Shown one piece after another: positions 8,574-41,768 of a stretch of DNA of 64,000 bases. Source of the stretch: Candidatus Adlerbacteria bacterium (lineage in GTDB: Bacteria; Patescibacteriota; Minisyncoccia; Phycocordibacterales; SBAW01); assembly GCA_028286685.1 (NCBI GenBank), contig JAQBRA010000002.1, forward strand, positions 1,073 to 65,072. Direction: 5' to 3'. The notes beneath the pieces are model-generated. The model saw nothing but the letters and a program-made list of their open reading frames with translations, ran no database searches and was not told the DNA's origin. Position 1 is the stretch's first letter; each line of letters begins with the position of its first letter. The position numbers and the translations under genes were made by a program.

Positions 8574-9734
8574 ATGACACACATGGACGTTGCTCCAGGT
8601 CCGGATATCGTCAGTCGAGATACGGACCGAGTCGACACTTATCCCGCCTACTACTTCCTCGCACTCATTGTGCTTGCGGCGGCCTGGTTTCTGACAGGTC
8701 TCGTATTTTACGGGATACCCGTCGGATACGGCAGCTTAACGATCTACATGAGCACCGTCATCTGGGCTTTGGGAGCCGCGCACTTTGCGACCAGCTTCAG
8801 GATTGTAGAGCCTGACTACTTCGCTGGCGTCCTGGTGTTCGGAACGCCGACCGTTGTCGTGACTGGCAAACCGCTCTTGGTGCCCATGGGAATCTTTAAA
8901 GTCATAGAGATCTCCCGGGGCATCATCCAAATGGAGCTGCCCAACGAGCCGAATCTCATCTTCCGCAAAGAGGATGTAGAGATTGTTCCTCCTGGCATGT
9001 CACCCCCAATCCGGGTGACCTTCAAGAAGGGAGTGGCAGGCGACGATGGCTTTGATCCAAACGATCCGTTTGATGACAGGTCGACTCAAGAAGTGACTCC
9101 TATCATTCGCTTCAGGATTCAAGACGAAGAAGGGTTCTGGACGTTCTTCGTAAGGCTCGGAGGATTCGACGAAGCGCGCAAGCAAGCCGAAGACATGAGC
9201 ATCGCCGTTCTCCAGCAGTGGCTGACAGCACTCACTCTTCGGCAAGCTTTCGCGGGTATCGGAACAATCAACCGACATTACGACGATTACATCCGAGCGC
9301 AGACTAAAGGATGGGGCATCGAGATCGACAGTGCACACATCAAACTTATTGGCCTGTCGCACTCCTTCAATACAGCCATCCAGGATATCCCGCGCGCCAA
9401 AGCCGAAAAACTTGCTCGAACTTCTCGGGCAGAAGCTAAGCAGATTGAGCTCACGCGCGAAGGACTCGGCGAGGCTAATGCCAGAAAAGCACTTCTTTTT
9501 GCTGAAGCCTCTGGTCTTGAAGAGAAAGCGAAGTCACTTGGCGTAACCGGACACGACATGCTCGGTGCCGATACGGCCCGAGCGATCGGAGAGTCCGGCA
9601 ATATGATTATTGTCGGCGCTCAAGGCCTTACGGAAGCCGTTACCGCCGCGTTTGCGGCGGGAAAAGGCATGCAAGGAAAACCCAAACCCACACCCCCTGC
9701 CACTGAACCAGGCACACCACCCACTGGAGCATAG
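8574..9734 (+). CDS. SPFH/Band-7 (stomatin/flotillin-like) domain membrane protein
   Basis: N-terminal TM helices, then an SPFH-like core (...IRFRIQDEEGFWTFFVRLGGFDEARKQAEDMSIAVLQQWL...), then an Ala/Glu-rich coiled coil and a Pro-rich tail. Confidence 0.6.
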   Translation: MTHMDVAPGPDIVSRDTDRVDTYPAYYFLALIVLAAAWFLTGLVFYGIPVGYGSLTIYMSTVIWALGAAHFATSFRIVEPDYFAGVLVFGTPTVVVTGKPLLVPMGIFKVIEISRGIIQMELPNEPNLIFRKEDVEIVPPGMSPPIRVTFKKGVAGDDGFDPNDPFDDRSTQEVTPIIRFRIQDEEGFWTFFVRLGGFDEARKQAEDMSIAVLQQWLTALTLRQAFAGIGTINRHYDDYIRAQTKGWGIEIDSAHIKLIGLSHSFNTAIQDIPRAKAEKLARTSRAEAKQIELTREGLGEANARKALLFAEASGLEEKAKSLGVTGHDMLGADTARAIGESGNMIIVGAQGLTEAVTAAFAAGKGMQGKPKPTPPATEPGTPPTGA

Positions 9735-9736
9735 AA

Positions 9737-10642
9737 ATGGAACTGACTTACGGAATCGCTATCTTTGTCCTCGTGGTGTTTTCCGTTTATTTTGGAAGAC
9801 ACTGGGAAAAGAAAGGCTCTACACGTATCAGCAGACCATCCCCCGTAACCCCTTCTACCAGAACACCGGAAGATACCGCAAACGAAGACAAAACTCCTCC
9901 TGCGGCTTCTGGCTGGTGGAAAGCGATAGGGGGCGTATCTGGTCGGTTTGTAACCTATTGGTCGACAAACTGGGCGTATGTTCTTCTGCCGCCCGCAGCG
10001 GTAGCACTGTCCCTTGTCCTGTTTGCATACTCCTTCCCTGAATGGTGGTGGTCATACAAACAATGGAATGGACCGACCTGGCAACTTGTGGTTGCCACGC
10101 TCGCACTCGGACTTATCAAGGTCTCTCCTCTCGCGCCCTCTTGGCGCGGGAGACTTACGGCATTAGTGCTCGTATTCGCGGTCGGAGCCTTTGTGTGGAC
10201 ACTTCTTGTCCGGGCTCCGTTCTTCTGCGCTCCTGGCGACACCGCGTGTCGCCAGGAGGAAGCCCGGGTGGCGAACGAGAAGCGTCTGGCCGTCCTGCAA
10301 GATCAGGCACGGCGCGCTAAACAAGAGCGGCGTGATGCAGTGGCACGAACGGACTGCACCCATGGCGTGTTGGCGACCATAGAGCTCAACCAAGAGCCGG
10401 TCACATTCCCCAACCGCTGCGTGTTTATCTTCGATATTACGGCCGGACCTGTCTGGTTCAAGGGCAGGGACGGCACTGTTGTCGGAGGCAGCACCGGAGT
10501 TACTGCAGGAGCTCGAGTGCCATGGCCCAGCGGGTTTCGACTCCTGGGCGCATGGTCGCGAGGCAACGGCAAGCTCGAAGGCGTCTTCTGCCCGGAAGAG
10601 CGGCCGGTATGGCGCAGCGGAACTTGCTCGCATACCGGTTAG
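9737..10642 (+). CDS. multi-pass membrane protein, partner of the SPFH gene (NfeD-like role possible)
   Basis: Start is 3 nt after the SPFH stop. It has four predicted TM segments, then a Cys-containing soluble C-terminal domain. No recognisable family. Confidence 0.4.
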   Translation: MELTYGIAIFVLVVFSVYFGRHWEKKGSTRISRPSPVTPSTRTPEDTANEDKTPPAASGWWKAIGGVSGRFVTYWSTNWAYVLLPPAAVALSLVLFAYSFPEWWWSYKQWNGPTWQLVVATLALGLIKVSPLAPSWRGRLTALVLVFAVGAFVWTLLVRAPFFCAPGDTACRQEEARVANEKRLAVLQDQARRAKQERRDAVARTDCTHGVLATIELNQEPVTFPNRCVFIFDITAGPVWFKGRDGTVVGGSTGVTAGARVPWPSGFRLLGAWSRGNGKLEGVFCPEERPVWRSGTCSHTG

Positions 10643-10792: not shown

Positions 10793-11269
10793 ATGCAAAA
10801 GACCCTTATAACCACTGCCGTGTTGGCCGCGCTTTTTGCTCCTCTATCAGCTATAGCCGCCTCGGTACCCACCGGATACTCTTACGACCCGGGCTATTCC
10901 TACACGCCTGGATACTCATATACCCCTGGCTACTCTATCCCGTCCGGCCACTCTGAAAACTCAGGCACTTCTATATCGTCGGGCCAGTCAATCTCAAGCG
11001 GTTCATCCATACCGTCGGGCCACTCTATACCTTCCGGCTACTCTATCCCCTCCGGACACTCGATACCTTCCGGCCATTCCGTAGAATCGGGACACTCTAT
11101 ATCGTCCGGCCAGTCCATCCAAACCGGCCATTCTATACAGTCGGGTTACTCTATTAGCTCCGGACATTCCATACAGTCGGGCCGCTCTATTCAGACCGGA
11201 TACTCAATACCTTCCGGCCGCTCCATAGAGTCCGGACATTCGATAGAGGGAACAAAGCTCAGCTGGTAA
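10793..11269 (+). CDS. secreted His/Ser/Gly-rich hexapeptide-repeat protein
   Basis: Signal peptide MQKTLITTAVLAALFAPLSAIAAS, then about 20 tandem S-I-x-S-G-H/Y/Q/R hexapeptides (18-bp DNA repeats). Confidence 0.6.
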   Translation: MQKTLITTAVLAALFAPLSAIAASVPTGYSYDPGYSYTPGYSYTPGYSIPSGHSENSGTSISSGQSISSGSSIPSGHSIPSGYSIPSGHSIPSGHSVESGHSISSGQSIQTGHSIQSGYSISSGHSIQSGRSIQTGYSIPSGRSIESGHSIEGTKLSW

Positions 11270-11282
11270 TACCCCGAAAGCC

Positions 11283-11325
11283 AAAACAAAACTCCCGGAC
11301 TTACGTCCGGGAGTTTTGTTTCTGC
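11283..11325 (+). terminator. rho-independent terminator (bidirectional hairpin)
   Basis: aaaacaaaactcccggac-ttac-gtccgggagttttgtttt. Confidence 0.7.
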
Positions 11326-11335
11326 ACTTACTACA

Positions 11336-11617
11336 TTAGCAAGGCAAATTGCCGCCAACCATAGTAGAGATAAGTTTTATGATTGCAATGGCGGAGACCA
11401 TGATAAACATGCCTCCCAGGCCCCACAGCATATGCTGTTTGCCCTCTTCTTTCTTGCCGGCCTCATTGCTTAGGCCCCACAGAAATTCCACAAGCCCCCA
11501 GACGAACACCAAAAGCCCTGCCGCGAATATGAGTGCGAGTAGCGGGTTTATAAACGCCTCGGTCAGCTTGCCGACGATGGTGCAGGTAGCGCTATTTGTA
11601 ACGGCAGCAGATAGCAT
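11336..11617 (-). CDS. VirB2/TrbC-like (T4SS-pilin-like) small membrane protein, paralog 1
   Basis: Two hydrophobic helices with the shared F-x-W-G-L-V-x-F/Y-L-x-G ... K ... L-x-W-G-L ... motif. Confidence 0.5.
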   Translation of the reverse strand: MLSAAVTNSATCTIVGKLTEAFINPLLALIFAAGLLVFVWGLVEFLWGLSNEAGKKEEGKQHMLWGLGGMFIMVSAIAIIKLISTMVGGNLPC

Positions 11618-11622
11618 GATTA

Positions 11623-12018
11623 TTATGGGGTATACCCGTCTTTACCGAAGAGAGGGCCGCTGCTATTGCCATACTGTATCTGCGGGGCTTTTCCTCGGGC
11701 ATTTTCATCGATACCGAGCGCTTCTTGCATAAGGGCAACAATACCCCAAACCGACACCATAACAAACAAGGTTATAAGGCCCCACTTCATCAGGTCCTTG
11801 CCCTTCTCGTGCCCGCTCTTGCTCGATGCCCCCCACAGGTAGCGCACCAAGCCCCAGAAGAACACGACCAGCGCTAGGGTAATGAGTATCGGTATGAGCG
11901 CTCCTATAAGACTCCCAAAAGCCCCTAAGAGGCTTTCAATAGGCGACAGGTTAAGTCCTTGGGCAGAGGCCCATGCGGGCAAAGCGAACAGGAGCAAAGC
12001 TGCAGACCTTTTTATCAT
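11623..12018 (-). CDS. VirB2/TrbC-like (T4SS-pilin-like) small membrane protein, paralog 2
   Basis: Signal peptide, then ILITLALVVFFWGLVRYLWGA...KDLMKWGLITLFVMVSVWGIV. Confidence 0.5.
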   Translation of the reverse strand: MIKRSAALLLFALPAWASAQGLNLSPIESLLGAFGSLIGALIPILITLALVVFFWGLVRYLWGASSKSGHEKGKDLMKWGLITLFVMVSVWGIVALMQEALGIDENARGKAPQIQYGNSSGPLFGKDGYTP

Positions 12019-12372
12019 TTACGGTACGAGTGCTTTAGGAGAGAGGACATCTGCATTGCGCTGGACACCCAAAGCATCCTGGGCCAGGCGGACAATGCCC
12101 CAGACCGACACCATGACAAACAAAGTTACGAGACCCCACTTCATCAGGTCCTTAGCACCGGCGGTGTTTGACTTGCCGCCAGCGCCGTACAAGTAGCGCA
12201 CCAAGCCCCAGAAAAAGACAACGAGTGCCAAGGTGATGAGTATCGGAACCAAGGCGGCAACGAGGCGGCCTACGGCGCCAATAAGATTGGCCAAAGGCTG
12301 TAGGCTCTGAGCCGAAGCCGCAAGCGGCAGTGCTAAAGAAAGGGCTGATAGTGCGGCGAAGGTCTTTTTCAT
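12019..12372 (-). CDS. VirB2/TrbC-like (T4SS-pilin-like) small membrane protein, paralog 3
   Basis: Core is near-identical to paralog 2 (ILITLALVVFFWGLVRYLYGA...KDLMKWGLVTLFVMVSVWGIV). The tail differs. Confidence 0.5.
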   Translation of the reverse strand: MKKTFAALSALSLALPLAASAQSLQPLANLIGAVGRLVAALVPILITLALVVFFWGLVRYLYGAGGKSNTAGAKDLMKWGLVTLFVMVSVWGIVRLAQDALGVQRNADVLSPKALVP

Positions 12373-12455
12373 TAAAATAACTTAAACGGGTATGGCTCTA
12401 TTCTAGCAGGCCCCTGCTCTCTTTTGCTTTGCCGTGTGGATAACAAAGGGCCAGG

Positions 12456-12698
12456 TTAGGCCGGCAGGAATATCCCCTGTAGCAATTGCAGTATGCCAAA
12501 TATGGATACCAGCACAAACAGCGCCACCAGGCCCCAGCCCAACAGCTCTTTTTGGCCCTGCTTGTCATGCGAGTCGCCGGACAGGTACAAGAACCGTACT
12601 GCGCCCCATAAAAATATGGCCAGCGCTACCGAGCCCAAGAGAGCCACCAGGACGTTTATAACGCTAATTATCTGGCCAACGAGGACGGAAAAAGTCAT
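12456..12698 (-). CDS. VirB2/TrbC-like (T4SS-pilin-like) small membrane protein, paralog 4
   Basis: LAIFLWGAVRFLYLSG...KELLGWGLVALFVLVSIFGIL. Confidence 0.45.
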   Translation of the reverse strand: MTFSVLVGQIISVINVLVALLGSVALAIFLWGAVRFLYLSGDSHDKQGQKELLGWGLVALFVLVSIFGILQLLQGIFLPA

Positions 12699-12701
12699 AT
12701 A

Positions 12702-13148
12702 TTAGCGGCCACAGAACTGTATCGTACCGCTGGTATCGAGCGTTTGGATAGTTGCCGAAATGATGCTGGCCAAGGTCCAAGCGCCCAGGAATATGGCAAT
12801 GCCTAAAATGACAAACTTAAAGTTCCTTTTAGCGTCGTCGAGCCCTGTCGCGCTGCCACGGGCCAATATAAACCTGAAACCCGACCATACTAAGAACAAG
12901 ACCGCGATCGGCATGCCTATCGCCATAATAATGTTGAGCAGGGCCTTGACCAGGTTGCAGAAATCATCAACGCCCAGCGGGTTACACAACTTAAAAGTAC
13001 CTCCTTGTGATCCGCAATCAGAGCCTGTGGGAACGGAATTTTGATATGTCCCTGTCTGGACAGAGTTTGCCTGCGCCAAAGCAAATTGTGGAATAAGTAT
13101 TATTCCACAAAGGATGAGCGAGGTTGAGATAAATTTATAAAATTTCAT
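12702..13148 (-). CDS. VirB2/TrbC-like small membrane protein, divergent Cys-containing paralog 5
   Basis: Signal peptide, a Cys-rich N-terminal part, then AVLFLVWSGFRFILARG...KRNFKFVILGIAIFLGAW. Lower GC than the others. Confidence 0.4.
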   Translation of the reverse strand: MKFYKFISTSLILCGIILIPQFALAQANSVQTGTYQNSVPTGSDCGSQGGTFKLCNPLGVDDFCNLVKALLNIIMAIGMPIAVLFLVWSGFRFILARGSATGLDDAKRNFKFVILGIAIFLGAWTLASIISATIQTLDTSGTIQFCGR

Positions 13149-14440
13149 TGATTTGGCAAAAGCTGGCGCATAGCCTGGGCGGCATCAAAAACGGCCTGCT
13201 CGGGGTCGGTGCGCCCCGATGAGACAGATTCTATCATTGTTTTAAAGATGTTATTGGTCGCCGAGGCGTTCGGGTCATTCCACGAGCGCGAGATAAGCGC
13301 TGACTGTACGAACACCTCTCCGGCGGCAGAAGCCGAGGTGTCTATGGGCACATCGCGGCGCACCGGCGGCAAGGTGGTCTGCCCCGATACGGCAGCAATG
13401 CCTGCGGCCGAGGTAAGCTTTTGGGCCACCGCCAAAGCTCCGGCCGGGTTCTGCGCCCCGCGAGCAATGGAGAGCCCCGCGATATTGCCGGAGGTAATGC
13501 GGGATGAAGCGCCCATAAGCTGGGGCAGCACCGCAACGCCAAAGCGCAGGTTGGGATTGCGCTCCGCTATGGAGCGGTACTCGCTGGCAAAGCCGAAGTA
13601 AACTGCAACGTCGCCCGAAGCAAATGCGTTGTACGAGTTGGGCAGCGAGCGGTTCCACGAGTAGGTGGTTTTAGAAGGGTTGGCAAAATCGGTATAAAAC
13701 CGCAAGGCTCCGGCAGCCGGCGTGTCGCTCTGGTTTTCAGGCTTGGAACCTAAGACAGTGGTAAGCGCGCCCGCAGCATTGCGACTCGTGACAAAGTCTC
13801 CGGTCTGCATGAACAGGGCCGACAGGACCGCCTTGCCGTTGTTTATGTTGTCCCAGGTGCCCAGCGCCACCGCCGACTTGCGGACCGAGCCGGCAGAGAG
13901 CGAGGTTATCTTGGGCGCCAAGGTAATGAGATCATTCCAATACTGGGGCGGCTGGGCGATGCCAACCCCGGTAAAGGTGTCGCGGTTCCAGTACATGACC
14001 AAGGGGTCTATGGTAAACGGCAAGGCCAAGATGCCTCCCGGGGTCAAAAACAGCTGGCCCTCGTCAACAAAGGACGACATGAACGTGCTTTGCGTCACGG
14101 CGCTGTACGGGATAGGCACTATCTTGTCGGAAAGCCCGCCCATGCTGCTCTGCGAGAGGAAGACCAGGTCCGGACCGGTGCCTGCTGCAATGGCATTTAC
14201 CAGGTCAGACTCGTACGTGGCCGGGCTGTGATAGTAATACTGCACATCCGAGAGGCTCTTATCCGCGCTAGACACCTCGCCTAGGACCGAGTCCATGGTC
14301 GACTGGTCGATAGTGCCCCAGACAATAACCGTGCCTATTCCCCCTTGGCCGCCCACACCCCCAAAAAGAGCGAAGACGCCGATACCGATGACGACAAGGG
14401 CTACGAAAATGCCGGTAACTATGGTTTGGAAGCTGGACAT
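13145..14440 (-). CDS. membrane-anchored extracellular solute-binding protein (ABC-transporter SBP family 1-like)
   Basis: N-terminal TM anchor, then a periplasmic-binding-protein-like sequence (...DLVFLSQSSMGGLSDKIVPIPY...WNDLITLAPKI...). Confidence 0.5.
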   Translation of the reverse strand: MSSFQTIVTGIFVALVVIGIGVFALFGGVGGQGGIGTVIVWGTIDQSTMDSVLGEVSSADKSLSDVQYYYHSPATYESDLVNAIAAGTGPDLVFLSQSSMGGLSDKIVPIPYSAVTQSTFMSSFVDEGQLFLTPGGILALPFTIDPLVMYWNRDTFTGVGIAQPPQYWNDLITLAPKITSLSAGSVRKSAVALGTWDNINNGKAVLSALFMQTGDFVTSRNAAGALTTVLGSKPENQSDTPAAGALRFYTDFANPSKTTYSWNRSLPNSYNAFASGDVAVYFGFASEYRSIAERNPNLRFGVAVLPQLMGASSRITSGNIAGLSIARGAQNPAGALAVAQKLTSAAGIAAVSGQTTLPPVRRDVPIDTSASAAGEVFVQSALISRSWNDPNASATNNIFKTMIESVSSGRTDPEQAVFDAAQAMRQLLPNQ

Positions 14441-14446
14441 GCGGTA

Positions 14447-14983
14447 TTACTTTTTCCTTAGTATAAGCCCCCAATGGTAGGCGCCTGCGGGGATATCCTC
14501 TGCCTGACTGAATCCGGCGACCTCGAATATTTTCTTAGCCTCCACAGCGGACACTATCTGGTCGGGATGCGGCCCCAAGCCGCCGTGCGAGTCGCCCCAG
14601 TCGATAAGCATGAGGCGGCCGGCACGGCGCAGCACGCGGGCAGCTTCTGCGGCTGCAGCAGCCTTGTCCTCGGTCGAAAAGAGCCCGTTGGCCAAAATGC
14701 AAAAATCCATGGTGCCTTCGGGCAAATGCGTGCCGTTAAGCTTTTCTATCGTGCCGCGCACAACCTCTATGTTGCGCAAGCCCTCGGCCTCGGCCAGATT
14801 CTTAAGCCGCGGGAGCATGTCCTGATGGGCATCTACGGCCCACACCTGGCCCTGGGCCCCTACCGCGCGGGCAGCCGCGCGGGCAAAAAAGCCCGAGCCA
14901 GCGGCCAAGTCGGCCACGCGCGAGCCTTCGCTTATGTGGCACGCCGCCACTGCTGCCTGCGGATTAAGAAACGAACTCTCCAT
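14447..14983 (-). CDS. class I SAM-dependent methyltransferase
   Basis: Motif I VADLAAGSGFFARAAA, and ...LRRAGRLMLIDW. Start taken at the second Met (MESSFLN). Confidence 0.6.
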   Translation of the reverse strand: MESSFLNPQAAVAACHISEGSRVADLAAGSGFFARAAARAVGAQGQVWAVDAHQDMLPRLKNLAEAEGLRNIEVVRGTIEKLNGTHLPEGTMDFCILANGLFSTEDKAAAAAEAARVLRRAGRLMLIDWGDSHGGLGPHPDQIVSAVEAKKIFEVAGFSQAEDIPAGAYHWGLILRKK

Positions 14984-15032
14984 TGCGTTCAGTATATATC
15001 CAAAAAAGCGCCGCCCAGAAAGTCTGGGCGGG

Positions 15033-15383
15033 CTAGGCGGCTTGCACTGAAACGATCCGGGCAAGTTTGGGTTTCAATTCCGTTTCTTCCACCCATCTAC
15101 CGCCTAAAGTTTCAGCAACGGGAATGCTGTAAAAACGCATATGGGCTACCGGCAGGATAAAAGAGTCGCCGAGCTCATACTCAATATCCTGGTAATAAAC
15201 CCACCCCTTAAGCAGCGGGCTTATCGCAATTGCAGCGCAACTGAGAGCCTCGGCCTCCGTATCAAAGAGGCTTTTGCATGTAGCGCAAGCGTATTGGACA
15301 TGGGCCTTCCAGACCGCGCAGCACCGGAGAGCCCTGGGCTGCTCGATATAGGCTGTTTCGCACCTCTCGCATTGAAATAACAT
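15033..15383 (-). CDS. hypothetical protein with an N-terminal Cys-rich (zinc-ribbon-like) segment
   Basis: CERCETAY...CC...CATC. Confidence 0.3.
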   Translation of the reverse strand: MLFQCERCETAYIEQPRALRCCAVWKAHVQYACATCKSLFDTEAEALSCAAIAISPLLKGWVYYQDIEYELGDSFILPVAHMRFYSIPVAETLGGRWVEETELKPKLARIVSVQAA

Positions 15384-15430
15384 CGCTACCTACCCCGCGC
15401 TAGAGCTTGTCTGCTTCAACTCTACACCCG

Positions 15431-15456
15431 CAAAAAAGCCCCGCTTGAGCGGGGGT
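15431..15456 (-). terminator. rho-independent terminator (minus strand)
   Basis: The minus-strand transcript ends ccccgctcaagcgggg followed by cttttttg. Confidence 0.6.
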
Positions 15457-15487
15457 GGATAAGTCAGAGGCCGCGCGGGCAGTACCG

Positions 15488-15648
15488 CTACCGGCCAACC
15501 GCCACGGCCTCGGACGGAGTGCCGGAGATGGCAGCCTGGCGTTCTGCAGAGAGCACCGATGCGCCCCACAGCGAGTATGCAACCGTGCAGACCATCGCTA
15601 GGGCGACCACTCCTGCCGTGCCCATTTTATTAGAAACTTTCTCGCTCA
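15488..15648 (-). CDS. small predicted single-TM peptide (52 aa), not in the ORF track
   Basis: MSEKVSNKMGTAGVVALAMVCTVAYSLWGASVLSAERQAAISGTPSEAVAVGR, directly followed by a canonical terminator. Confidence 0.3.
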
Positions 15649-15917
15649 TATATACATAAACGCACAACCTGCCTGTTTCTTACATGAATTACCCGCCGCA
15701 CGTATGTGCGGCGGGTAATAAAACAGCTTCTTGTCTTTAAAAATTACAGAAGGAACGGCGCACAATACAAAGAAACGCCCACCAATCCCGCAGCCCACAA
15801 CCCCGCCTTGCGACACGCTTCTTTGTTTCTGAAAAACGACACGACCCGCTTCGCCATGACGACCTCCCAAGATCCAGCCTCTGCCACAAAGGTACTCCAC
15901 CCCGCAGCGCGGTCAAC

Positions 15918-16178
15918 TTACTTATCCCCTTCGACTTTAGAAAATCGCTGCATCTGACTGTCCTCCCACTGCAGGGATTCGCTCCACTCGGCAAGCGGGC
16001 GGGTAAACAGCGGCGCGGCCGCATTGTCATACATCGGCTCGTACACCACCGCCCATTGATCAGTCGAGTCGAGCGCAACGCCGATAATTTTATATAAATC
16101 GCCCTTGTAGTGCTTATATACCTCCCCTGCCTCAGGGGCGTCTGCAGGCAACATTGGTACCGGATCTCCTTTTGACAT
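15918..16178 (-). CDS. DUF1653-family protein
   Basis: EVYKHYKGDLYKIIGVALDSTDQWAVVYEPMY is a typical DUF1653 core. Start taken at the second Met. Confidence 0.5.
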   Translation of the reverse strand: MSKGDPVPMLPADAPEAGEVYKHYKGDLYKIIGVALDSTDQWAVVYEPMYDNAAAPLFTRPLAEWSESLQWEDSQMQRFSKVEGDK

Positions 16179-16199
16179 ATCCCTAGTATACAAACAAAA

Positions 16200-16229
16200 C
16201 GCCCGCGGCACCCAATGGGGCCGCGGGCT
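16200..16229 (-). terminator. palindromic terminator (copy A of a repeated palindrome)
   Basis: gcccgcggc-acccaatgg-ggccgcgggc, followed by a T-run on the minus strand. Confidence 0.5.
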
Positions 16230-16234
16230 CTCAA

Positions 16235-16396
16235 TCAATTCCTATAGCGATAACCGCTGTGGGGGTTCGCGCTGGCAAACTTATTCATCGCCTCTCTGTA
16301 GCTTTTGCCATCTCCGCTCTTGGGAGGAGACGGCGGGGTCCTGACCCCCTTTTTGCGAGCCTTGATCCGCTCACTCTGCCGTTTGGACTTTGCCAT
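16235..16396 (-). CDS. small basic protein (53 aa), not in the ORF track
   Basis: GGAGG sits 7 nt upstream of the ATG. The product is MAKSKRQSERIKARKKGVRTPPSPPKSGDGKSYREAMNKFASANPHSGYRYRN, flanked by two similar terminator palindromes. Confidence 0.35.
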   Translation of the reverse strand: MAKSKRQSERIKARKKGVRTPPSPPKSGDGKSYREAMNKFASANPHSGYRYRN

Positions 16397-16483
16397 TTCG
16401 ATACCTCCGTATCATTTCCGGGCTGGAACTGCGCCGCTGCCGACACCTTACTATGCCACCCTGTCAAAATCAACAAAATAAAA

Positions 16484-16520
16484 GCCCGCGGCACCCATAG
16501 GGCCGCGGGCTATTCTTTTC
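16484..16520 (-). terminator. palindromic terminator (copy B), bidirectional
   Basis: gcccgcggc-acccatagg-gccgcgggc with T-runs on both sides. Confidence 0.55.
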
Positions 16521-16522
16521 GC

Positions 16523-16843
16523 TTATTTTTTTGTCTTGCGCCTGAGTTTGGTCTTGAGCTTGAGCTTTTTTATCTCACTCAAGACTTTGCGCGGAAGACC
16601 GGAGCTATTGCCTTTCTTGCGGCGCTTATTGTCTTCGGACAGGATTTTTTGGACCCGACGGATCTTCTTTGCATCCTGCGCTTCGATCTTTTCTCGAGCC
16701 ACTATCTCTTCCCGGCGCCGGGTATCGGCCTCGAAGAAAGTCTCCTGATTGGGGCCATAGACCACCTGGGACATCGAAGTTATTCCTGCCGTACCCAGGC
16801 CCCTAAACTTCGCATTAACGTTGCTGTACAGGCGTACTGCCAT
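16523..16843 (-). CDS. hypothetical protein with a highly basic Lys/Arg-rich C-terminus
   Basis: MAVRLYSNVNAKFRGLGTAGITSM...KKLKLKTKLRRKTKK. Confidence 0.3.
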   Translation of the reverse strand: MAVRLYSNVNAKFRGLGTAGITSMSQVVYGPNQETFFEADTRRREEIVAREKIEAQDAKKIRRVQKILSEDNKRRKKGNSSGLPRKVLSEIKKLKLKTKLRRKTKK

Positions 16844-16926
16844 CTTCTCCAATCCTCTAGAGCTGCTTGTCTGCTCCTATTTTACCAAATTTGACGTTTT
16901 AGTAAATAAATACTCTTATTCTGCCG

Positions 16927-17436
16927 CTAGTTTATCTTGTCGCCGTAATCGAGGTCGTGCTGGGCGTAGCGATGGCGCAGCATGGCCTCGTCGCCGTACT
17001 TGGCAAACGACTGCTCGAAGGGCGACGGCATAAAGCCGCGTTCCTCCAGGTGCGCGATGGCGCAGAAGTAGTTTTGCGTGCGCCCGGCCACGACCGAGGC
17101 GTAGTGCAGCCAGCCGTTTACGTAGCCGCAGTACATGCAGCCGATCTTCTCGTACCAGGTCAGATACGGCAGCCTGGCGCGATCGACAATGCGTATATAG
17201 TGGCTGCGCTTAACCTTGCGGATGCCAAACAGCGGGAAAGCAATTTGATGATAGAGCTCCAAGAAAATGTCTGAGATGACGACCGGCACGAGCATGAGCC
17301 AAACCAGGGGCGCGCCCACCAGGTAGCGCAAAAACTGCGGATATTTGGACTTTGTGTGGGTAATTATCGGTTTAGTCATACTTAAGTTATCCCCAGCGTT
17401 ATCCCCTTTTATGCCATTTTGGGGTGAATTGGTCAA
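16927..17436 (-). CDS. hypothetical membrane protein
   Basis: 169-aa ORF with one TM segment (LVGAPLVWLMLVPVVISDIFL). No recognisable family. Confidence 0.3.
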   Translation of the reverse strand: MTNSPQNGIKGDNAGDNLSMTKPIITHTKSKYPQFLRYLVGAPLVWLMLVPVVISDIFLELYHQIAFPLFGIRKVKRSHYIRIVDRARLPYLTWYEKIGCMYCGYVNGWLHYASVVAGRTQNYFCAIAHLEERGFMPSPFEQSFAKYGDEAMLRHRYAQHDLDYGDKIN

Positions 17437-17695
17437 AATGCTATACTGGTGGAAGTAGGTAGGTCAGGAAGCATAGAGGCTTCTACTGATCCTAAAGCGA
17501 CATTGGTTGATCCATTTGATCGCATATTGTGTGGGGCGACCCACTTACCGGGCATGGGCTTACGCCGAGCGATTTCGGATCGAGGGCTGAGGAGTTGCTG
17601 GAGAGTACGCAACATTCTCCACTCAGGCACCAACATTCACTTACCGTTCGGACCCGCCTCCCAAACTCCAGCTTCGGCTCGGAGTTTTTGTATTT

Positions 17696-20167
17696 TTACA
17701 AGCAAACGAAGGAGGCAATTGCGTCGCCTTCGCGGAGTTTCATCACGCGGACGCCTTGGGTGCTGCGGGAGAGGGACGGGATTTCTTTAAGCGCGGTGCG
17801 AATGACCTGACCCTTCTTGGAGACGACAACGATCTCGTCCTCGCCTACGCCTTCTTCTTTTGAAATTACTTTAGACGCAATCAGCGAGCCGGTCTTGGGG
17901 GTCGTATTCATGGTCTTGATGCCCGAGCCGCCGCGGTTCTGGTTCTTGTACTCGTCCACCGAGGTGGTCTTGCCGTAGCCGTTCTTGGACAACACCAGAA
18001 CCTCGAGGTTCTTCATCCCCTTCTTGATAACGTCGGCACCCACGATAATGTCGCCGGCCCCCAGCTTCATACCGCGCACGCCGCCGGCACCGCGGCCCAT
18101 GGCGCGGATGTCGCCCTCCTTAAAGCGGATCGATTGGCCCTTGGCGGTCGAGAGGAAGATCTCGTCGCCCTTCTCTACCAGGAGCGCGGCAATAAGCTCG
18201 TCGCCCTTCTGGAGCTTGATAGCAATAAGGCCCGAGCGGCGCACGTCATGGAAGGCGGTGGCGTCTACCTTCTTGGCAACGCCTTCTTTGGTGATCATGT
18301 ACAAAAACTTCTCGCCCTCCTTCTGGTTCTTGCGCATCGGCAGCACGCTCGATACTTTTTCTGAGTCGGTAAGCTGCAGGAAGTTGACCAGGGCCTTGCC
18401 CTTGGTCGAGCGCTTGCCTTCAGGAATTTCGTAGAACTTGAGCTGGAAGGCGCGGCCTGCGTCGGTAAAGAACAAAAGGTCGCTATGGGTCGAGGTGGTC
18501 AGGAAGGTAGTAACGAAGTCCTCCTCTTTAGTATCAAGGTCGATAACGCCAACGCCGCCGCGCTTCTGCTGCTTGTATTCGTCGGGGTTGGTGCGCTTAA
18601 CGTAGCCGCCTGCAGTCAATACCAAAACCTGCTCCTCGTCGGGCACGAGATCCTCGACATTGATAACGCCGGCGGCGCCTTTCATCACCTTGGTGTTGCG
18701 GTCGTCGCTAAAGCGGCGGGTAAGCTCCTCGATCTCATGCTTAATAAGCGCGAGCATCTTCTTGTCGCTGCCCAAGAGCGCGGTCAGCTCGGCAATAAGC
18801 GCCTGGACCTCTGCAAGCTCGTCCATGACCTTCTGGCGCTCGAGGTTAGCAAGGCGCGAAAGACGCATCTCCAAAATGGCAGTGGCCTGCAAGTCGCTGA
18901 ACTTGTACTTCTTAACGATGTTGGCATGCGCCTCCGGCACATCTTTGGAGGCGCGGATGGTCTTGATGAGCTCATCAATTATGTCGAGCGCCTTGGCGAG
19001 GCCGAGCAAGATGTGCTCGCGGTCCTGCGCCTTGGTGAGATCAAACAGCGTGCGGCGGCGCACGACCTCGCGGCGGTGCTTAATAAACTCCTCGAGGATG
19101 CCTTTGAGTGAAATGGTCTGCGGCACGCCGTCGACAAGCACAACCATGTTGAAATGGAACGTGTCCTCAAGCGCGGTGTGCTTGTAGAGGAAGTTGAGGA
19201 CCTTCTGCGGATGCGCGCCCTGTTTGAGGTCGATAACGACGCGGATGTCCTTGGACGATTCGTCGCGCAGGCCGCGCACGCCCTCAAGCTTCTTGTCGCG
19301 GACCAGGTCGGCGATGCGCATGATGAGGTCGGCCTTGTTGACGCGGTACGGAATGGAGGTAATGACGATCTGGAAGTCGCCCTTCTTGCCTTCTACAATT
19401 TCTGCCACGCCGCGCACGACTACGCCGCCCTTGCCGGTGCTGTAGGCATGCAAAAGCGCTTTCTTATCAAATGCCACGGCGCCCGTCGGGAAGTCCGGGC
19501 CGGTAATAAACTCCATGAGGTCCTCGACGGTTGCGTCCGGGTTTTCTATCAAATGCGTCAAAGCGCCGGAGACCTCGCCCAAGTTGTGCGGCGGAATAGA
19601 GGTTGCCATACCGACGGCGATACCGAGCGTGCCGTTAAGCAGAATGTTGGGCATGCCGGCAGGCAGCACCGTCGGCTCCTTGATAGTGCCATCGTAGTTG
19701 GGGCGCCACTCCACAGTGTCTTTATCAAGGTCGTTTAAGAGCGCCTCGGCTACGCGCGACATTTTCGCCTCGGTGTAGCGGTAGGCGGCGGCCGAGTCGC
19801 CGTCGATGGAGCCGAAGTTACCCTGGCCCAAAATGAGCGGGTAGCGCATAGAGAAGTCTTGCGTCATCTTGACCATCGCGTCGTACACCGACTGGTCGCC
19901 GTGCGGGTGGTATTTACCCAGTACGTCTCCCACGATAGTTGCCGACTTGCGGAAGCGCGCGCCCGGGGTAAGCCCCTGGCGATGCATGGTGTAGAGAATG
20001 CGGCGGTGCACCGGCTTGAGACCGTCGCGCACATCGGGCAGGGCGCGGTCGGTAATGACCGACATGGCGTAGTCGATAAAGCTCTCGCGCATTTCAGCGG
20101 AGATGCTGCGGCCGACGATGCCCGTGCCGCCCTGTTCTTTTGTCTTGTTTTCTTCCTTGTCTGCCAT
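17696..20167 (-). CDS. gyrA: DNA gyrase subunit A
   Basis: 823 aa, [23 protein letters not shown] (active-site Tyr region), and the C-terminal beta-pinwheel GyrA-box region. Confidence 0.95.
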
Positions 20168-26125: not shown

Positions 26126-26464
26126 GTGGTACGCATCCCCGCAGTATTTAAGAAGATCCAGGCCGAGATACTCGGCCCCAGCTACGACCTTTCGGTCGTT
26201 TTTTTGGTTGAGAAGGAGATGCGAAAAGCGATGAAGTACCGGTACGAGAAAATAGCCGGAAAGAAGACGTCCAACGTGCTGTCGTTCCCGCTTTCCAAAA
26301 CGTCCGGCGAAATCCTCATCTGCCCCGATGCCGCAAAGCCCTACACCCTTGCCTACCTTTTTATCCACGGATGCCTGCACCTTAAAGGGTCCAAGCATAG
26401 TGATACAATGGAGCGTGAAGAGAACCGGATTTTAAAAAAATTCGGCCTTCGCGCGCATGAATAA
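26126..26464 (+). CDS. ybeY: rRNA maturation RNase YbeY
   Basis: H-x-x-x-H-x-x-x-x-x-H triad in IHGCLHLKGSKHSD. Confidence 0.7.
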   Translation: MVRIPAVFKKIQAEILGPSYDLSVVFLVEKEMRKAMKYRYEKIAGKKTSNVLSFPLSKTSGEILICPDAAKPYTLAYLFIHGCLHLKGSKHSDTMEREENRILKKFGLRAHE

Positions 26465-35423: not shown

Positions 35424-35677
35424 ACCTACATATCGTCTTTAACATACGGACGCGATTTCGCGTAAGTGTAGTGCGTATGCCGTGATAGGACTGTGAACAA
35501 AGGCTATGGACAAAGCACGCATGCCGTAGCACAGCGCAATAATCTGAAGATGAAATATGGCGCAACCGTGCGATATACGATTCTTCATTAAGTTTCATCG
35601 TCCTTTCACTATTGACCATATTCACCGAGTCTTAAAGAATATGCAGGTGCGAAGCTTACCCGTTATGAATTCCAAGA

Positions 35678-37438: not shown

Positions 37439-37537
37439 GGTTACCGACCTAAAAATCGACTCATCCCCCGTTCAGCGCAGTGCAACAGGCCATGGTTCAC
37501 TATCAGTTCAGCGTACTACGGTACAGTACGCCGTGAT

Positions 37538-38923: not shown

Positions 38924-38927
38924 GGCA

Positions 38928-40211: not shown

Positions 40212-40216
40212 CTCCC

Positions 40217-41767: not shown

Positions 41768-41768
41768 C

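What the first reader, a model, noticed from the sequence alone, without database searches (positions are those of the whole stretch)
11336..13148. Tandem array of five divergent VirB2/TrbC-like (T4SS-pilin-like) paralogs next to a solute-binding protein
Five consecutive minus-strand genes encode 80-148-aa proteins with a signal peptide and two hydrophobic helices. All carry F-x-W-G-L-V-x-(F/Y)-L-x-G ... K ... L-x-W-G-L-x-x-L-F. Paralogs 2 and 3 have near-identical cores but different tails, which suggests recent duplication. Paralog 5 is Cys-rich and lower in GC. Arrays like this are a hallmark of CPR/Patescibacteria cell-surface and episymbiosis machinery. No VirB4, VirB6 or VirD4 gene lies within the window, so the genes are orphaned from a complete T4SS here.
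Basis: partly seen in the sequence, partly recalled or inferred. Interest (0 to 1): 0.6.

Follow-up and report, generated by a model that had tools for sequence, protein, structure and literature searches.

The report
Sugar-binding protein plus pilin-like gene array
Five small membrane proteins related to conjugation-type (VirB2) pilins sit in a row behind a membrane-anchored sugar-binding protein in a tiny symbiotic (CPR) bacterium. Such pilin arrays are already known in this group, but the fixed pairing with the binding protein, seen in about 60 related genomes, does not appear in the papers I could search.

Summary
Five consecutive minus-strand genes at 11336-13148 encode 80-148-aa proteins with two hydrophobic helices. 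Four pass Pfam's threshold for T4SS_pilin (PF18895). The first also reaches TrbC/VirB2, and its subfamily aligns with authentic VirB2 (hhalign 85%).

Three details are overstated. Only three of the five have a signal peptide. The shared motif fails in paralog 5. The 66%-identical pair is an old duplication, present in related genomes.

The window is chromosomal DNA of a Candidatus Adlerbacteria MAG. No T4SS gene was found in it.

Tandem VirB2-like arrays in Patescibacteria are published (441 arrays; an essential array in S. epibionticum), so the kind is known.

What the searchable literature does not mention is the context:
- In 79 related Paceibacteria loci the order is gyrA, often a methyltransferase, a MalE-fold solute-binding protein with a conserved N-terminal anchor, then 3-7 pilin-like genes.
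- The array is polarised. The A type is first in almost all arrays and the E type last in nearly all.
- No VirB4, VirB6 or ABC permease lies within 10 kb.
- A conserved gap inside the array carries a DnaA-box-like site (TTATCCACA) 26 nt upstream of an extended -10.

Function is inferred, not shown.

The parts
14447..14983 (-). Class I SAM methyltransferase (UbiE/Methyltransf_11/25 type). It is probably the first gene of the transcription unit. The likely start is the ATG at 14983 (178 aa), not the TTG at 15064.
   Evidence: Pfam hits. Relatives encode 178-aa orthologues directly upstream of the SBP. The gene is present in about two thirds of related loci. A terminator-like hairpin at 15011-15031 lies inside the longer TTG ORF.
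13145..14440 (-). Membrane-anchored extracellular solute-binding protein with a MalE/UgpB-type class I SBP fold. It has a conserved N-terminal 'MS(K/T)FQ(I/T)I' motif plus one TM helix and a Gly-rich linker.
   Evidence: SBP_bac_1 at 66.6 bits and SBP_bac_8 at 64.7 bits. Best PDB sequence hit is 4r9f, a manno-oligosaccharide-binding protein, E 5.5e-11. AF2 model has pLDDT 85 and pTM 0.84. Foldseek finds MalE, UgpB and sugar SBPs at E about 1e-22. One TM segment at residues 7-25. N-terminus conserved in 62 orthologues. The protein is 54-75% identical across Paceibacteria.
12702..13148 (-). Pilin-like paralog 5, the 'A type'. It has a signal peptide, a low-complexity spacer, an NPL motif, a Cys before helix 1 and a Cys near the C-terminus. 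Its start overlaps the SBP stop (ATGA).
   Evidence: PF18895 at 35.1 bits and PF04956 TrbC at 28.0 bits. AF2 helical hairpin at 60-96 and 103-139, core pLDDT 81-88. A-type family against authentic VirB2: hhalign 85%, E 5.8e-6. The A type leads 56 of the 62 related arrays typed; in the other six the leading ORF typed B, D or E.
12456..12698 (-). Pilin-like paralog 4, the 'B type' (80 aa). It has no signal peptide and starts 3 nt after the stop of paralog 5.
   Evidence: PF18895 at 30.5 bits. Two TM segments. Orthologues of 78-81 aa sit at the same position.
12373..12455 (-). 83-bp intra-array gap with a putative internal promoter. It holds a perfect DnaA-box sequence TTATCCACA (12435-12443), then 26 nt, then TGCTAGAAT (12400-12408, extended -10-like), about 27 nt before the ATG of paralog 3 (the extended -10 starts 36 nt before it).
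   Evidence: It is the only perfect TTATCCACA in the 64 kb. In related loci the largest intra-array gap (median 105 bp, against 7 bp for the other gaps) precedes the same gene type. ATCCACA occurs 33 times in such gaps against 1.0 expected; 57 of 78 loci carry a box variant. The spacing to TGnTAnnnT is fixed at 25-28 nt. The gap does not fold better than shuffles, z +0.92. No Rfam family matches.
12019..12372 (-). Pilin-like paralog 3, the 'C type' (117 aa), with a signal peptide. It is the first gene after the internal promoter and a candidate major subunit.
   Evidence: PF18895 at 29.3 bits. 74% identical to positional orthologues. The same gene type follows the conserved gap in 49 (plus 13) of 71 arrays.
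11623..12018 (-). Pilin-like paralog 2, the 'D type' (131 aa), with a signal peptide and a longer C-terminal tail. Its start abuts the stop of paralog 3.
   Evidence: PF18895 at 27.7 bits. 66% identical to paralog 3 over 91 aa. Orthologues of 132-135 aa have the same tail.
11336..11617 (-). Pilin-like paralog 1, the 'E type' (93 aa). It has no signal peptide here and carries a Cys near each end. It is the last gene of the array.
   Evidence: PF18895 at 23.7 bits, below the gathering score, E 5e-5; Maff2 E 0.0025. Identical to an NCBI Candidatus Adlerbacteria protein (P0089). The E type is the last gene in nearly all related arrays.
11284..11321 (-). Intrinsic-terminator hairpin (17-bp stem, GTAA loop) between the array and the convergent gene 10793-11269.
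   Evidence: Read directly from the sequence. Sub-threshold Rfam matches there only reflect the hairpin. The simple terminator scan did not list it.

Best explanation
**What it is.** The locus is a conserved chromosomal cassette of Paceibacteria (Patescibacteria/CPR). It encodes a membrane-anchored sugar-type solute-binding protein followed by a polarised set of VirB2/TrbC-like pilin proteins.

**Transcription, inferred from gene spacing and motifs.**
- One unit runs methyltransferase, SBP, A, B. SBP and A are translationally coupled.
- An internal promoter with a DnaA-box-like operator then drives C, D and E, ending at a strong terminator.

**Mechanism, inferred.**
- The five hairpin proteins insert into the cytoplasmic membrane with the basic loop inside.
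- They are taken up by the monoderm-type T4SS encoded elsewhere in the genome to build a cell-surface filament or the channel's pilin-like core.
- C/D/E types would be the abundant structural subunits. The A type, whose N-terminal extension is exposed and variable, would be a specialised tip or minor subunit.
- The co-encoded SBP would act at the same surface as a glycan receptor, for host recognition or for capture of host-derived sugars. It is unlikely to be part of a locally encoded ABC importer.

**Shown here:** homology of the small proteins, predicted topology, SBP fold, synteny, spacing and motif enrichment.

**Inferred:** pilus assembly, partnership with a distant T4SS, the role of the SBP, and DnaA control.
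For: **Homology of the small proteins**
- PF18895 scores are above the gathering score for 4 of 5, and TrbC reaches its gathering score for paralog 5.
- 54 of 55 family members hit PF18895 and 9 hit TrbC.
- The A-type profile against authentic VirB2/TrbC gives hhalign 85%, E 5.8e-6, over 56 columns spanning both helices and the pre-helix Cys.
- Four of five give weak matches to the Mycoplasma ICE pilin-like family NF045849.

**Topology**
- All five have two TM segments. All 372 related proteins examined have K/R in the loop.
- The AF2 model of paralog 5 is a helical hairpin.

**Precedent**
- PF18895 proteins SEML1_0014-0019 lie beside VirB6, PrgI and VirB4 genes in S. epibionticum and are essential.
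- 441 such arrays are reported in Patescibacteria.
- T4SS pilins are among the most highly expressed secreted genes in cultured Paceibacteria.
- VirB4 is present in 2,417 of 3,035 Patescibacteria assemblies, including the Adlerbacteria assemblies shown in Table S1.

**Coupling to the SBP**
- In 62 loci with a full SBP, the distance from the SBP stop to the first pilin start is -41 to +39 nt in 48. It is an ATGA overlap in 12.
- The order gyrA, (methyltransferase), SBP, pilins holds in virtually every locus with enough upstream DNA.
- The SBP has a real MalE-type fold, many invariant aromatic residues and a conserved TM anchor.
- No ABC permease or ATPase appears among recurrent neighbours.

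**Division of labour**
- The A type leads 56 of 62 typed arrays and the E type closes nearly all of them. The middle types vary from 1 to 4 copies.
- One genome carries a 671-aa protein with a C-terminal PF18895 domain at the A position.

**Internal promoter:**
Against: - No T4SS ATPase, VirB6 or VirB3/PrgI gene lies in the 64-kb window or within 10 kb of the array in any of 79 related loci. The link to a T4SS therefore rests on homology and on other lineages.
- I could not examine the rest of this genome.
- The mixed family profile (A3) does not align with authentic VirB2. A family profile against PDB sequences gives only noise, with TraM of pKM101 at E 0.08. Foldseek of the hairpin model finds nothing significant. 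Direct evidence for VirB2 homology thus rests on the A type plus the Pfam model.
- Two of the five lack a signal peptide, unlike classical VirB2.
- The SBP adjacency could reflect conserved gene order in a very syntenic housekeeping region (gyrA to IF-2) rather than shared function.
- No pilus of this type has been seen in any Patescibacterium, as far as the papers read here report.
Confidence: 0.55

Rival explanations
1. The small proteins are not pilus subunits. They are integral membrane partners of the anchored SBP and together form a T4SS-independent membrane complex. This would be an SBP-dependent uptake or sensing device built from 2-TM hairpins, descended from VirB2-like proteins but put to a new use.
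For: - The strictly conserved partner is the SBP, not any T4SS gene.
- SBP and A are translationally coupled.
- The SBP's TM anchor and N-terminal FQ motif are conserved, which suggests contacts within the membrane.
- The B and E types lack signal peptides.
- No ABC permease lies nearby.
Against: - Homologous PF18895 arrays in Saccharibacteria sit inside the T4SS cluster with no SBP.
- The A type is detectably homologous to true VirB2.
- An internal promoter separates C-D-E from the SBP, which is not what a fixed-stoichiometry complex would predict.
- No known transporter is built this way.
Confidence: 0.15
2. The adjacency has no functional meaning. The SBP serves an ordinary ABC importer encoded elsewhere. 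The pilin array merely occupies a stable slot in a highly syntenic housekeeping region.
For: - The whole neighbourhood (Lactamase_B_3, gyrA, methyltransferase ... Band_7, IF-2, RbfA) is syntenic across these genomes. An unrelated methyltransferase is conserved there as well.
- C-D-E appear to have their own promoter.
- One locus (L068) has pilins without a detectable upstream SBP.
Against: - The stop/start overlap or a gap of 39 nt or less between SBP and the first pilin is kept in 48 of 62 genomes, although the proteins have diverged to 54-57% (SBP) and 20-50% (pilins) identity.
- The methyltransferase is lost in about a third of loci, while SBP plus pilins stay together.
- SBP genes normally sit beside their permeases, and none is here.
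Confidence: 0.2
3. The array is a variation cassette. Multiple interchangeable VirB2 paralogs would broaden host range or evade host defences, as proposed for the VirB2 paralog arrays of Bartonella and Anaplasma and suggested for Patescibacteria.
For: - Paralogs are divergent, 13-47% identical apart from the C/D pair.
- The number of middle (B/C/D-type) genes varies from 1 to 4 between genomes.
- This reading is offered in PMC12102498.
- The five pilin genes have lower GC3 (0.55-0.68) than the SBP (0.72) and gyrA (0.79).
Against: - Each position has its own orthologue, conserved at 63-74% between species-level genomes. That is the same range as the SBP at 72-75%.
- The order from A to E is essentially fixed.
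- The types differ in architecture: signal peptide or not, spacer, tails. This points to distinct roles rather than interchangeable variants.
- No repeats or recombination signals were seen in the array.
Confidence: 0.1

Closest known systems
T4SS pilin array of Candidatus Southlakia epibionticum ML1 (SEML1_0014-0019; Wang et al. 2023, PMC10633639)
   Same: Both are tandem sets of five or six small, sequence-divergent PF18895 (some also PF04956) proteins in a Patescibacterium. Both have the signal-peptide plus two-helix architecture.
   Different: There the array lies inside the T4SS cluster, beside VirB6-like, PrgI and VirB4 genes and a lysozyme, and was shown essential by Tn-seq. No SBP is adjacent. 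Here the array is next to gyrA and an SBP, no T4SS gene lies within the window, and nothing has been tested experimentally.
VirB2-like pilin arrays across Patescibacteria (Quinonero-Coronel et al. 2025, PMC12102498)
   Same: This locus fits their definition: 2-11 tandem genes hitting PF18895/PF04956, with low identity within the array. They report an average of 25% and a maximum of 54%.
   Different: [quoted passage not shown]
- The SBP-coupled, gyrA-linked, polarised Paceibacteria cassette and its internal box/promoter are not described. The terms solute, substrate-binding and ABC are absent from the text.
- The C/D pair here is 66% identical, above their stated maximum.
Classical VirB2/TrbC pilins (A. 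tumefaciens VirB2, RP4 TrbC; Pfam PF04956)
   Same: Both have a long signal peptide, two hydrophobic helices joined by a short basic loop, and a Cys just before helix 1. The A-type family aligns with them across both helices.
   Different: - Classical pilins are single-copy and sit in the virB operon next to virB1 and virB3 in diderm bacteria. Some are cyclised.
- Here there are five paralogs, two without a signal peptide, in a monoderm, away from the machinery.
- The non-A types show no direct profile match to VirB2.
Small pilin-like proteins of monoderm conjugative elements (Maff2 PF12750; Mbov_0395 family NF045849 of Mycoplasma ICEs)
   Same: Both are 70-80-residue two-helix proteins linked to monoderm MPF_FATA-type systems. 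Weak matches were found: Maff2 E 0.0025 for paralog 1, and NF045849 E 2.5e-4 to 3.4e-3 for four of five.
   Different: All matches are far below the curated cut-offs (17-21 bits against 40; 18 against 27). Those proteins are single genes on mobile elements.
SBPs attached to surface or transfer machineries: PrgZ of pCF10 (pheromone-binding SBP encoded with a conjugation system) and the archaeal 'bindosome' (sugar-binding proteins with pilin-like signal peptides)
   Same: In both, a solute-binding protein is encoded or assembled together with a conjugation or pilus-type apparatus rather than with its own permease. This comparison rests on my own knowledge and was not tested here.
   Different: PrgZ is a family-5 peptide binder, whereas this is a family-1 sugar-type binder. 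The N-terminus here (MS-K/T-FQ-I-I...) has no G/A before the hydrophobic stretch and no prepilin-peptidase-type motif, so it is not a class III signal peptide.

Membership tests
Pfam PF18895 T4SS_pilin | Whole-protein score at or above the curated gathering score (26.6 bits) | tested here: met
   Scores are 35.1, 30.5, 29.3 and 27.7 bits for paralogs 5, 4, 3 and 2. Paralog 1 is below at 23.7 bits (E 5e-5). 54 of 55 relatives hit at E of 0.01 or less.
Pfam PF04956 TrbC/VirB2 pilin | Score at or above the gathering score (27.9 bits) | tested here: inconclusive
   Only paralog 5 reaches it, and marginally (28.0 bits, E 2.6e-6). Paralog 2 scores 13.7 bits and the others show no hit. 9 of 55 relatives hit at E of 0.01 or less.
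VirB2/TrbC pilins (classical) | Profile-level sequence homology to experimentally studied VirB2 | tested here: inconclusive
   The A-type subfamily against 7 authentic MPF_T VirB2/TrbC sequences gives hhalign 85.4%, E 5.8e-6, over 56 columns. The mixed family profile gives 0.6%. Against PDB sequences there is nothing significant.
VirB2/TrbC pilins (classical) | Cleavable signal peptide followed by two hydrophobic helices and a short basic loop | tested here: inconclusive
   Two helices and a K/R loop are present in 5 of 5. A signal-peptide-like N-terminus is present in 3 of 5. No dedicated signal-peptide or topology predictor was available.
VirB2/TrbC pilins (classical) | Encoded within or beside the T4SS machinery genes (virB1/B3/B4/B6) | tested here: not met
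   No such gene lies in the 64-kb window or within 10 kb in 79 related loci. Authentic virB2 genes fetched here sit between virB1 and virB3.
VirB2/TrbC pilins (classical) | Polymerises into an extracellular pilus, with or without bound phospholipid or cyclisation | not testable with these tools
   This needs microscopy or biochemistry. The monomer AF2 model shows only a hairpin, and Foldseek against the PDB is uninformative.
Patescibacterial VirB2-like pilin array (PMC12102498) | 2-11 tandem genes hitting PF18895/PF04956 in a Patescibacteria genome | tested here: met
   Five tandem genes. The source is a Candidatus Adlerbacteria MAG.
Patescibacterial T4SS | VirB4 (with TrsD, PrgI, VirB6) encoded in the same genome | not tested
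   Only 64 kb of a 196-kb contig is visible, and attempts to extend it failed. The Adlerbacteria assemblies shown in Table S1 of PMC12102498 are VirB4-positive.
ABC importer substrate-binding protein (SBP_bac_1) | Class I SBP fold | tested here: met
   PF01547 at 66.6 bits. AF2 pLDDT 85. Foldseek E about 1e-22 to MalE, UgpB and sugar SBPs.
ABC importer substrate-binding protein (SBP_bac_1) | Encoded beside its permease and ATPase genes | tested here: not met
   None was found in the window ORFs scanned or among recurrent neighbours in related loci.
Archaeal-type bindosome / class III signal-peptide SBP | Prepilin-like signal: basic N-terminus, G/A at -1, then a hydrophobic stretch | tested here: not met
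   The consensus N-terminus is M-S-(K/T)-F-Q-(I/T)-I, with no G/A before F.
DnaA box | 9-mer TTATCCACA (TTWTNCACA) at a conserved position | tested here: met
   A perfect 9-mer lies at 12435-12443 and is unique in the window. The core TATCCACA, or its inverted variant GTTATCC(A/C)C, is enriched about 30-fold in the homologous gap of related loci. Binding by DnaA was not tested.

The most novel reading that the evidence does not exclude
In Paceibacteria the VirB2-like proteins and the anchored sugar-binding protein form one dedicated surface organelle. It would be a receptor-bearing, T4SS-type filament or conduit used to recognise host glycans or take up host sugars. Its main structural genes would be switched by DnaA through the conserved box at the internal promoter. 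That would tie building of the host-contact apparatus to the replication cycle of the epibiont.
Probability: 0.12. Interest if true: 0.8.

Novelty: new variant of a known kind. Interest (0 to 1): 0.45.

Why it matters
- **Open question.** VirB2-like pilin arrays are among the few Patescibacteria-specific features shown to be essential for the epibiotic lifestyle, yet their role is unknown.
- **Natural dissection.** This lineage separates the pilin genes from the secretion machinery. It keeps them welded to a sugar-binding receptor and gives each array position its own conserved orthologue. That argues for specialised subunits rather than interchangeable variants.
- **Candidate partner.** The SBP can be tested directly.
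- **Regulatory handle.** The DnaA-box-like site is a sequence-defined, testable control element in organisms where regulation is almost unexplored.
- **If the pairing is only synteny,** the locus is simply one more member of a published class.

Tried and rejected
- **Foldseek of the paralog 5 model against the PDB.** No hit below E 3. A two-helix hairpin is too simple for fold search.
- **Family profile against PDB sequences.** This gave only GPCR-type noise, with TraM at E 0.08.
- **hhalign of the mixed family alignment against VirB2.** No match. Only the A-type sub-alignment worked.
- **Genome-contig scan with the five-paralog alignment.** I repeated it with a C/D-type alignment, so the 79 loci are biased towards relatives of those types.
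- **Extending beyond the window.** Exact-protein look-up failed four times.
- **Structured RNA or riboswitch in the 83-bp gap.** Rejected: the fold z-score is +0.92 and there is no Rfam hit.
- **Replication origin at the DnaA box.** Rejected: there is a single box, cumulative GC skew shows no turning point there, and 1-mismatch boxes in the window are not above chance (10 against 6.65 expected).
- **Disulfide 'staple' between the pre-helix and C-terminal Cys as a family feature.** Both Cys are present in only 23 of 88 A-type proteins, so it is lineage-specific at best.
- **Class III (prepilin-like) signal on the SBP.** Rejected.
- **Horizontal transfer as the cause of low GC.** Not supported, because the cassette is syntenic and vertically conserved.
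- **Expression data from the mBio 2024 paper.** The supplement did not contain the cited pilin loci, because the files were cut when stored.


Full report
**1. The observation**

A 431-aa ORF at 13145-14440 lies immediately upstream in the direction of transcription.

I name the genes in transcription order:

|---|---|---|
| A | 5 | 148 aa |
| B | 4 | 80 aa |
| C | 3 | 117 aa |
| D | 2 | 131 aa |
| E | 1 | 93 aa |

Spacing is tight within two groups and loose between them:
- The SBP stop overlaps the start of A (ATGA).
- A and B are 3 nt apart.
- C and D abut.
- D and E are 5 nt apart.
- B and C are separated by 83 bp.
- A 17-bp-stem hairpin at 11284-11321 follows E.

An HMM built from the five finds no further copy in any frame of the window. 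All five have two strongly hydrophobic 19-residue segments.

- Only A, C and D have a signal-peptide-like N-terminus.
- The quoted motif fits E, D and C, fits B partly, and does not fit A. Across all five only M1, one G, one W and one K are invariant.
- C and D are 66% identical over 91 residues, not near-identical.

A does have 4 Cys and the lowest GC, 0.472 against 0.577 for the window.

**2. What the proteins are**

- Against Pfam, A, B, C and D exceed the gathering score of PF18895 T4SS_pilin (35.1, 30.5, 29.3 and 27.7 bits against 26.6). E falls just short at 23.7 bits, E 5e-5.
- A also reaches PF04956 TrbC/VirB2 at 28.0 against 27.9.
- Of 55 family members from public data, 54 hit PF18895 and 9 hit TrbC.
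- As an independent test I fetched seven authentic VirB2/TrbC genes, each sitting immediately upstream of virB3 (most also preceded by a virB1-type lytic transglycosylase) on alphaproteobacterial plasmids.
  - A profile of A-type proteins aligns with them at 85% probability, E 5.8e-6. The alignment covers 56 columns, both helices and a Cys just before helix 1.
  - A profile of the mixed family does not align.
- The AlphaFold model of A is a helical hairpin at 60-96 and 103-139, with core pLDDT 81-88, behind a disordered spacer.
- Fold search and PDB sequence search were uninformative, as expected for so simple a fold.
- NCBIfam gives only sub-threshold matches to a Mycoplasma ICE pilin-like family.

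So the proteins are members of PF18895. Through the A type they are remote relatives of VirB2/TrbC. Whether they form a pilus cannot be tested here.

**3. Where the window comes from**

E and the SBP are identical to proteins of a Candidatus Adlerbacteria MAG on a 196,030-bp contig (locus tags JWL87_25 and _26).

The window is ordinary chromosome. It holds gyrA, IF-2, LepA, MurJ, FtsA/FtsZ, aminoacyl-tRNA synthetases and 11 tRNAs.

No ORF of 150 aa or more hits a VirB4, VirB6, VirD4, VirB3/PrgI or VirB8 family. The ORFs without a Pfam hit include no large multi-TM protein (the most is a 301-aa ORF at 9737-10642 with four hydrophobic segments) and have no T4SS NCBIfam hit.

**4. The locus in other genomes**

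- Exact-protein look-ups showed the same seven-gene cassette in related contigs. It runs methyltransferase, SBP, then five pilin-like genes of the same sizes in the same order, with gyrA upstream and Band_7/IF-2 downstream.
- Positional orthologues are 63-74% identical between genomes. Paralogs within a genome are 13-47% identical, except C/D at 56-66%. Both C and D, each with its own tail, exist in all three genomes compared. The array is therefore old, and the C/D duplication is not recent.
- A scan of one genome per species returned 79 loci from Adlerbacteria, Kaiserbacteria, Nomurabacteria, Zambryskibacteria, Campbellbacteria and unnamed Paceibacteria.
- In virtually every locus with enough upstream DNA the order is gyrA, a methyltransferase (in about two thirds), SBP, then 3-7 pilin-like genes on one strand.
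- In 62 loci with a complete SBP, the distance from SBP stop to first pilin start is -41 to +39 nt in 48. It is an ATGA overlap in 12.
- The array is polarised. An A-type gene, or two, comes first in 56 of the 62 typed arrays; an E-type gene comes last in nearly all. Between them lie 1-4 genes of B/C/D type.
- In one genome the A position holds a 671-aa protein with the PF18895 domain at its C-terminus. This suggests the N-terminal part of the A type is an exposed, expandable module.
- Clustering all neighbours found only housekeeping families, a Band_7 protein and unknowns. It found no VirB4-sized ATPase, no VirB6-like protein and no ABC permease or ATPase.

**5. The solute-binding protein**

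- It hits SBP_bac_1 and SBP_bac_8.
- Its best solved relative by sequence is a manno-oligosaccharide-binding protein, 4r9f, at E 5.5e-11.
- Its model (pLDDT 85) superposes on MalE, UgpB and other sugar binders at E about 1e-22.
- It has one N-terminal TM helix and a Gly-rich linker.
- The extreme N-terminus, M-S-(K/T)-F-Q-(I/T)-I, is conserved across 62 orthologues and does not look like a prepilin signal.
- The protein is 54-75% identical across the class, with many invariant W, Y, D and N residues. It is therefore under strong constraint and probably still binds a carbohydrate.

**6. A conserved element inside the array**

- In related loci one intra-array gap is large, with a median of 105 bp against 7 bp for all the others. 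It almost always precedes the C-type gene.
- In the window this 83-bp gap contains TTATCCACA, the canonical DnaA-box 9-mer, at 12435-12443. This is its only perfect occurrence in the 64 kb.
- TGCTAGAAT, an extended -10-like element, follows 26 nt downstream.
- Across 78 loci, ATCCACA occurs 33 times in such gaps against 1.0 expected. The variant GGGGATAA occurs 16 times against 0.5. In all, 57 loci carry one form.
- In Adlerbacteria-like lineages the consensus is G-n-TATCCACA-(C/G), with a nearly fixed spacing of 25-28 nt to TGnTAnnnT. In Zambryskibacteria-like lineages the same core is inverted (GTTATCC(A/C)C) and lies just upstream of a TTGAC-type -35.
- The gap does not fold better than shuffled sequence and matches no Rfam family.
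- I read this as a protein-binding site at an internal promoter for C-D-E. DnaA is the obvious candidate but was not tested.
- It is not an origin. There is a single box, the GC skew does not turn there, and near-matches elsewhere in the window are at chance level.

**7. What is already known**

- Quinonero-Coronel et al. 2025 searched 3,035 Patescibacteria genomes with PF04956 and PF18895.
  - They found VirB2-like genes in 1,948 VirB4-positive assemblies, near virB4 in 1,135 of them.
  - They described 441 arrays of 2-11 genes, with mean identity 25% and maximum 54%.
  - VirB4 is present in 2,417 assemblies, including the Adlerbacteria entries visible in their Table S1.
- Wang et al. 2023 showed that the six PF18895 genes SEML1_0014-0019 in the T4SS cluster of S. 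epibionticum are essential.
- A 2025 review calls these the only monoderm T4SSs with potential conjugative pili.
- A metatranscriptome of cultured Paceibacteria lists T4SS pilins among the most highly expressed secreted genes.
- None of the texts I could search mentions the SBP pairing or DnaA boxes in Patescibacteria.
- The library is incomplete, so absence there is not proof of novelty.

**8. Interpretation**

The most likely reading, at about 0.55, is as follows. These are VirB2-type subunits used by the monoderm-type T4SS encoded elsewhere in the genome.
- C/D/E would be expressed from their own promoter as the bulk subunits.
- A and B would be made with the SBP.
- The SBP would act as a surface glycan receptor working with the filament or channel.

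The rivals are:
- a T4SS-independent SBP/hairpin membrane complex (0.15);
- conserved synteny with no functional link (0.2);
- a variation cassette (0.1).

The fixed order and position-specific orthology argue against the variation cassette. The stop/start coupling, retained while the proteins diverged widely, argues against mere synteny. The T4SS context of homologues in Saccharibacteria and the VirB2 homology of the A type argue against the membrane-complex rival.

None of the rivals is excluded. I could not inspect the rest of this genome.

**9. Verdict**

The array itself is a further member of a published class, so the finding as written is not new. The Paceibacteria-wide cassette architecture is a new variant and is worth a short follow-up. 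It comprises:
- SBP coupling;
- detachment from virB4;
- polarised A-to-E order;
- an internal promoter with a DnaA-box-like site.

The main follow-up value is that the cassette names a testable partner and a testable regulatory site.

Noticed in passing
window 12400-12443 (- strand); homologous gaps in L002-L086: A perfect DnaA-box 9-mer, TTATCCACA, lies 26 nt upstream of an extended -10-like TGCTAGAAT in the 83-bp gap before paralog 3. The core, or its inverted variant, is about 30-fold enriched in the equivalent gap of 57 of 78 related loci, at nearly fixed spacing. The binding protein is unknown.
   Followed up: partly
window 10793-11269 (+): This is a convergent 158-aa secreted protein made of Ser/Gly/His/Pro hexapeptide repeats (SGHSIP-like). 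It is encoded by an 18-nt-period tandem repeat of about 17 copies. ORFs of 176-189 aa with no Pfam hit occupy the same position in relatives. It may be another cell-surface component of the neighbourhood.
   Followed up: no
window 8574-10642 (+): A Band_7/SPFH protein (386 aa) and a 301-aa multi-TM protein follow the array region. Band_7 proteins recur at this position in many related loci.
   Followed up: no
window 14984-15064 and 15011-15031 (- strand): The longest ORF for the methyltransferase (TTG start at 15064, 205 aa) contains a terminator-like hairpin with a T-tract. Relatives have 178-aa proteins that match an ATG start at 14983. The transcription unit therefore probably begins between 14984 and 15010.
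   Followed up: partly
window 33525-42605: A cluster that looks like surface-polysaccharide synthesis. It contains two polysaccharide deacetylase proteins (632 and 537 aa), a LamG/concanavalin-like 586-aa protein, a UDP-glucose/GDP-mannose dehydrogenase and a GT2 chitin-synthase-like glycosyltransferase.
   Followed up: no
L050 6775-8790: At the A-type position directly after the SBP, one related genome encodes a 671-aa protein whose only Pfam domain is a C-terminal T4SS_pilin (residues 593-655). The Yanofskyibacterium MAG in PMC10936435 likewise has 410-486-aa PF18895 proteins.
   Followed up: no
window 17355-17395 and 26361-26369: One-mismatch DnaA-box-like sites lie as an inverted pair 24 bp apart just downstream of gyrA, and about 90 nt upstream of ftsA. 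The total count of such near-matches in the window is not above chance, at 10 against 6.65 expected.
   Followed up: no
L010, L017, L051 and the window's source contig: In four long contigs (754, 518, 405 and 196 kb) the cassette lies within about 25 kb of a contig end (locus tags JWL87_25/26). This could reflect a nearby assembly-breaking repeat, or genomes rotated to a common start. It was not resolved.
   Followed up: no
window 11336-13148 versus 13145-20167: The five pilin-like genes have lower third-position GC (0.55-0.68) than the SBP (0.72) and gyrA (0.79). The cassette is vertically conserved, so this suggests different codon usage or faster evolution rather than recent transfer.
   Followed up: no
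record titles of L008-L075: Many TPA_asm records titled 'uncultured Candidatus Saccharibacteria bacterium' carry this Paceibacteria-type cassette with 40-77% identity to the window's proteins. Those organism names are probably generic placeholders and should not be read as Saccharimonadia.
   Followed up: no
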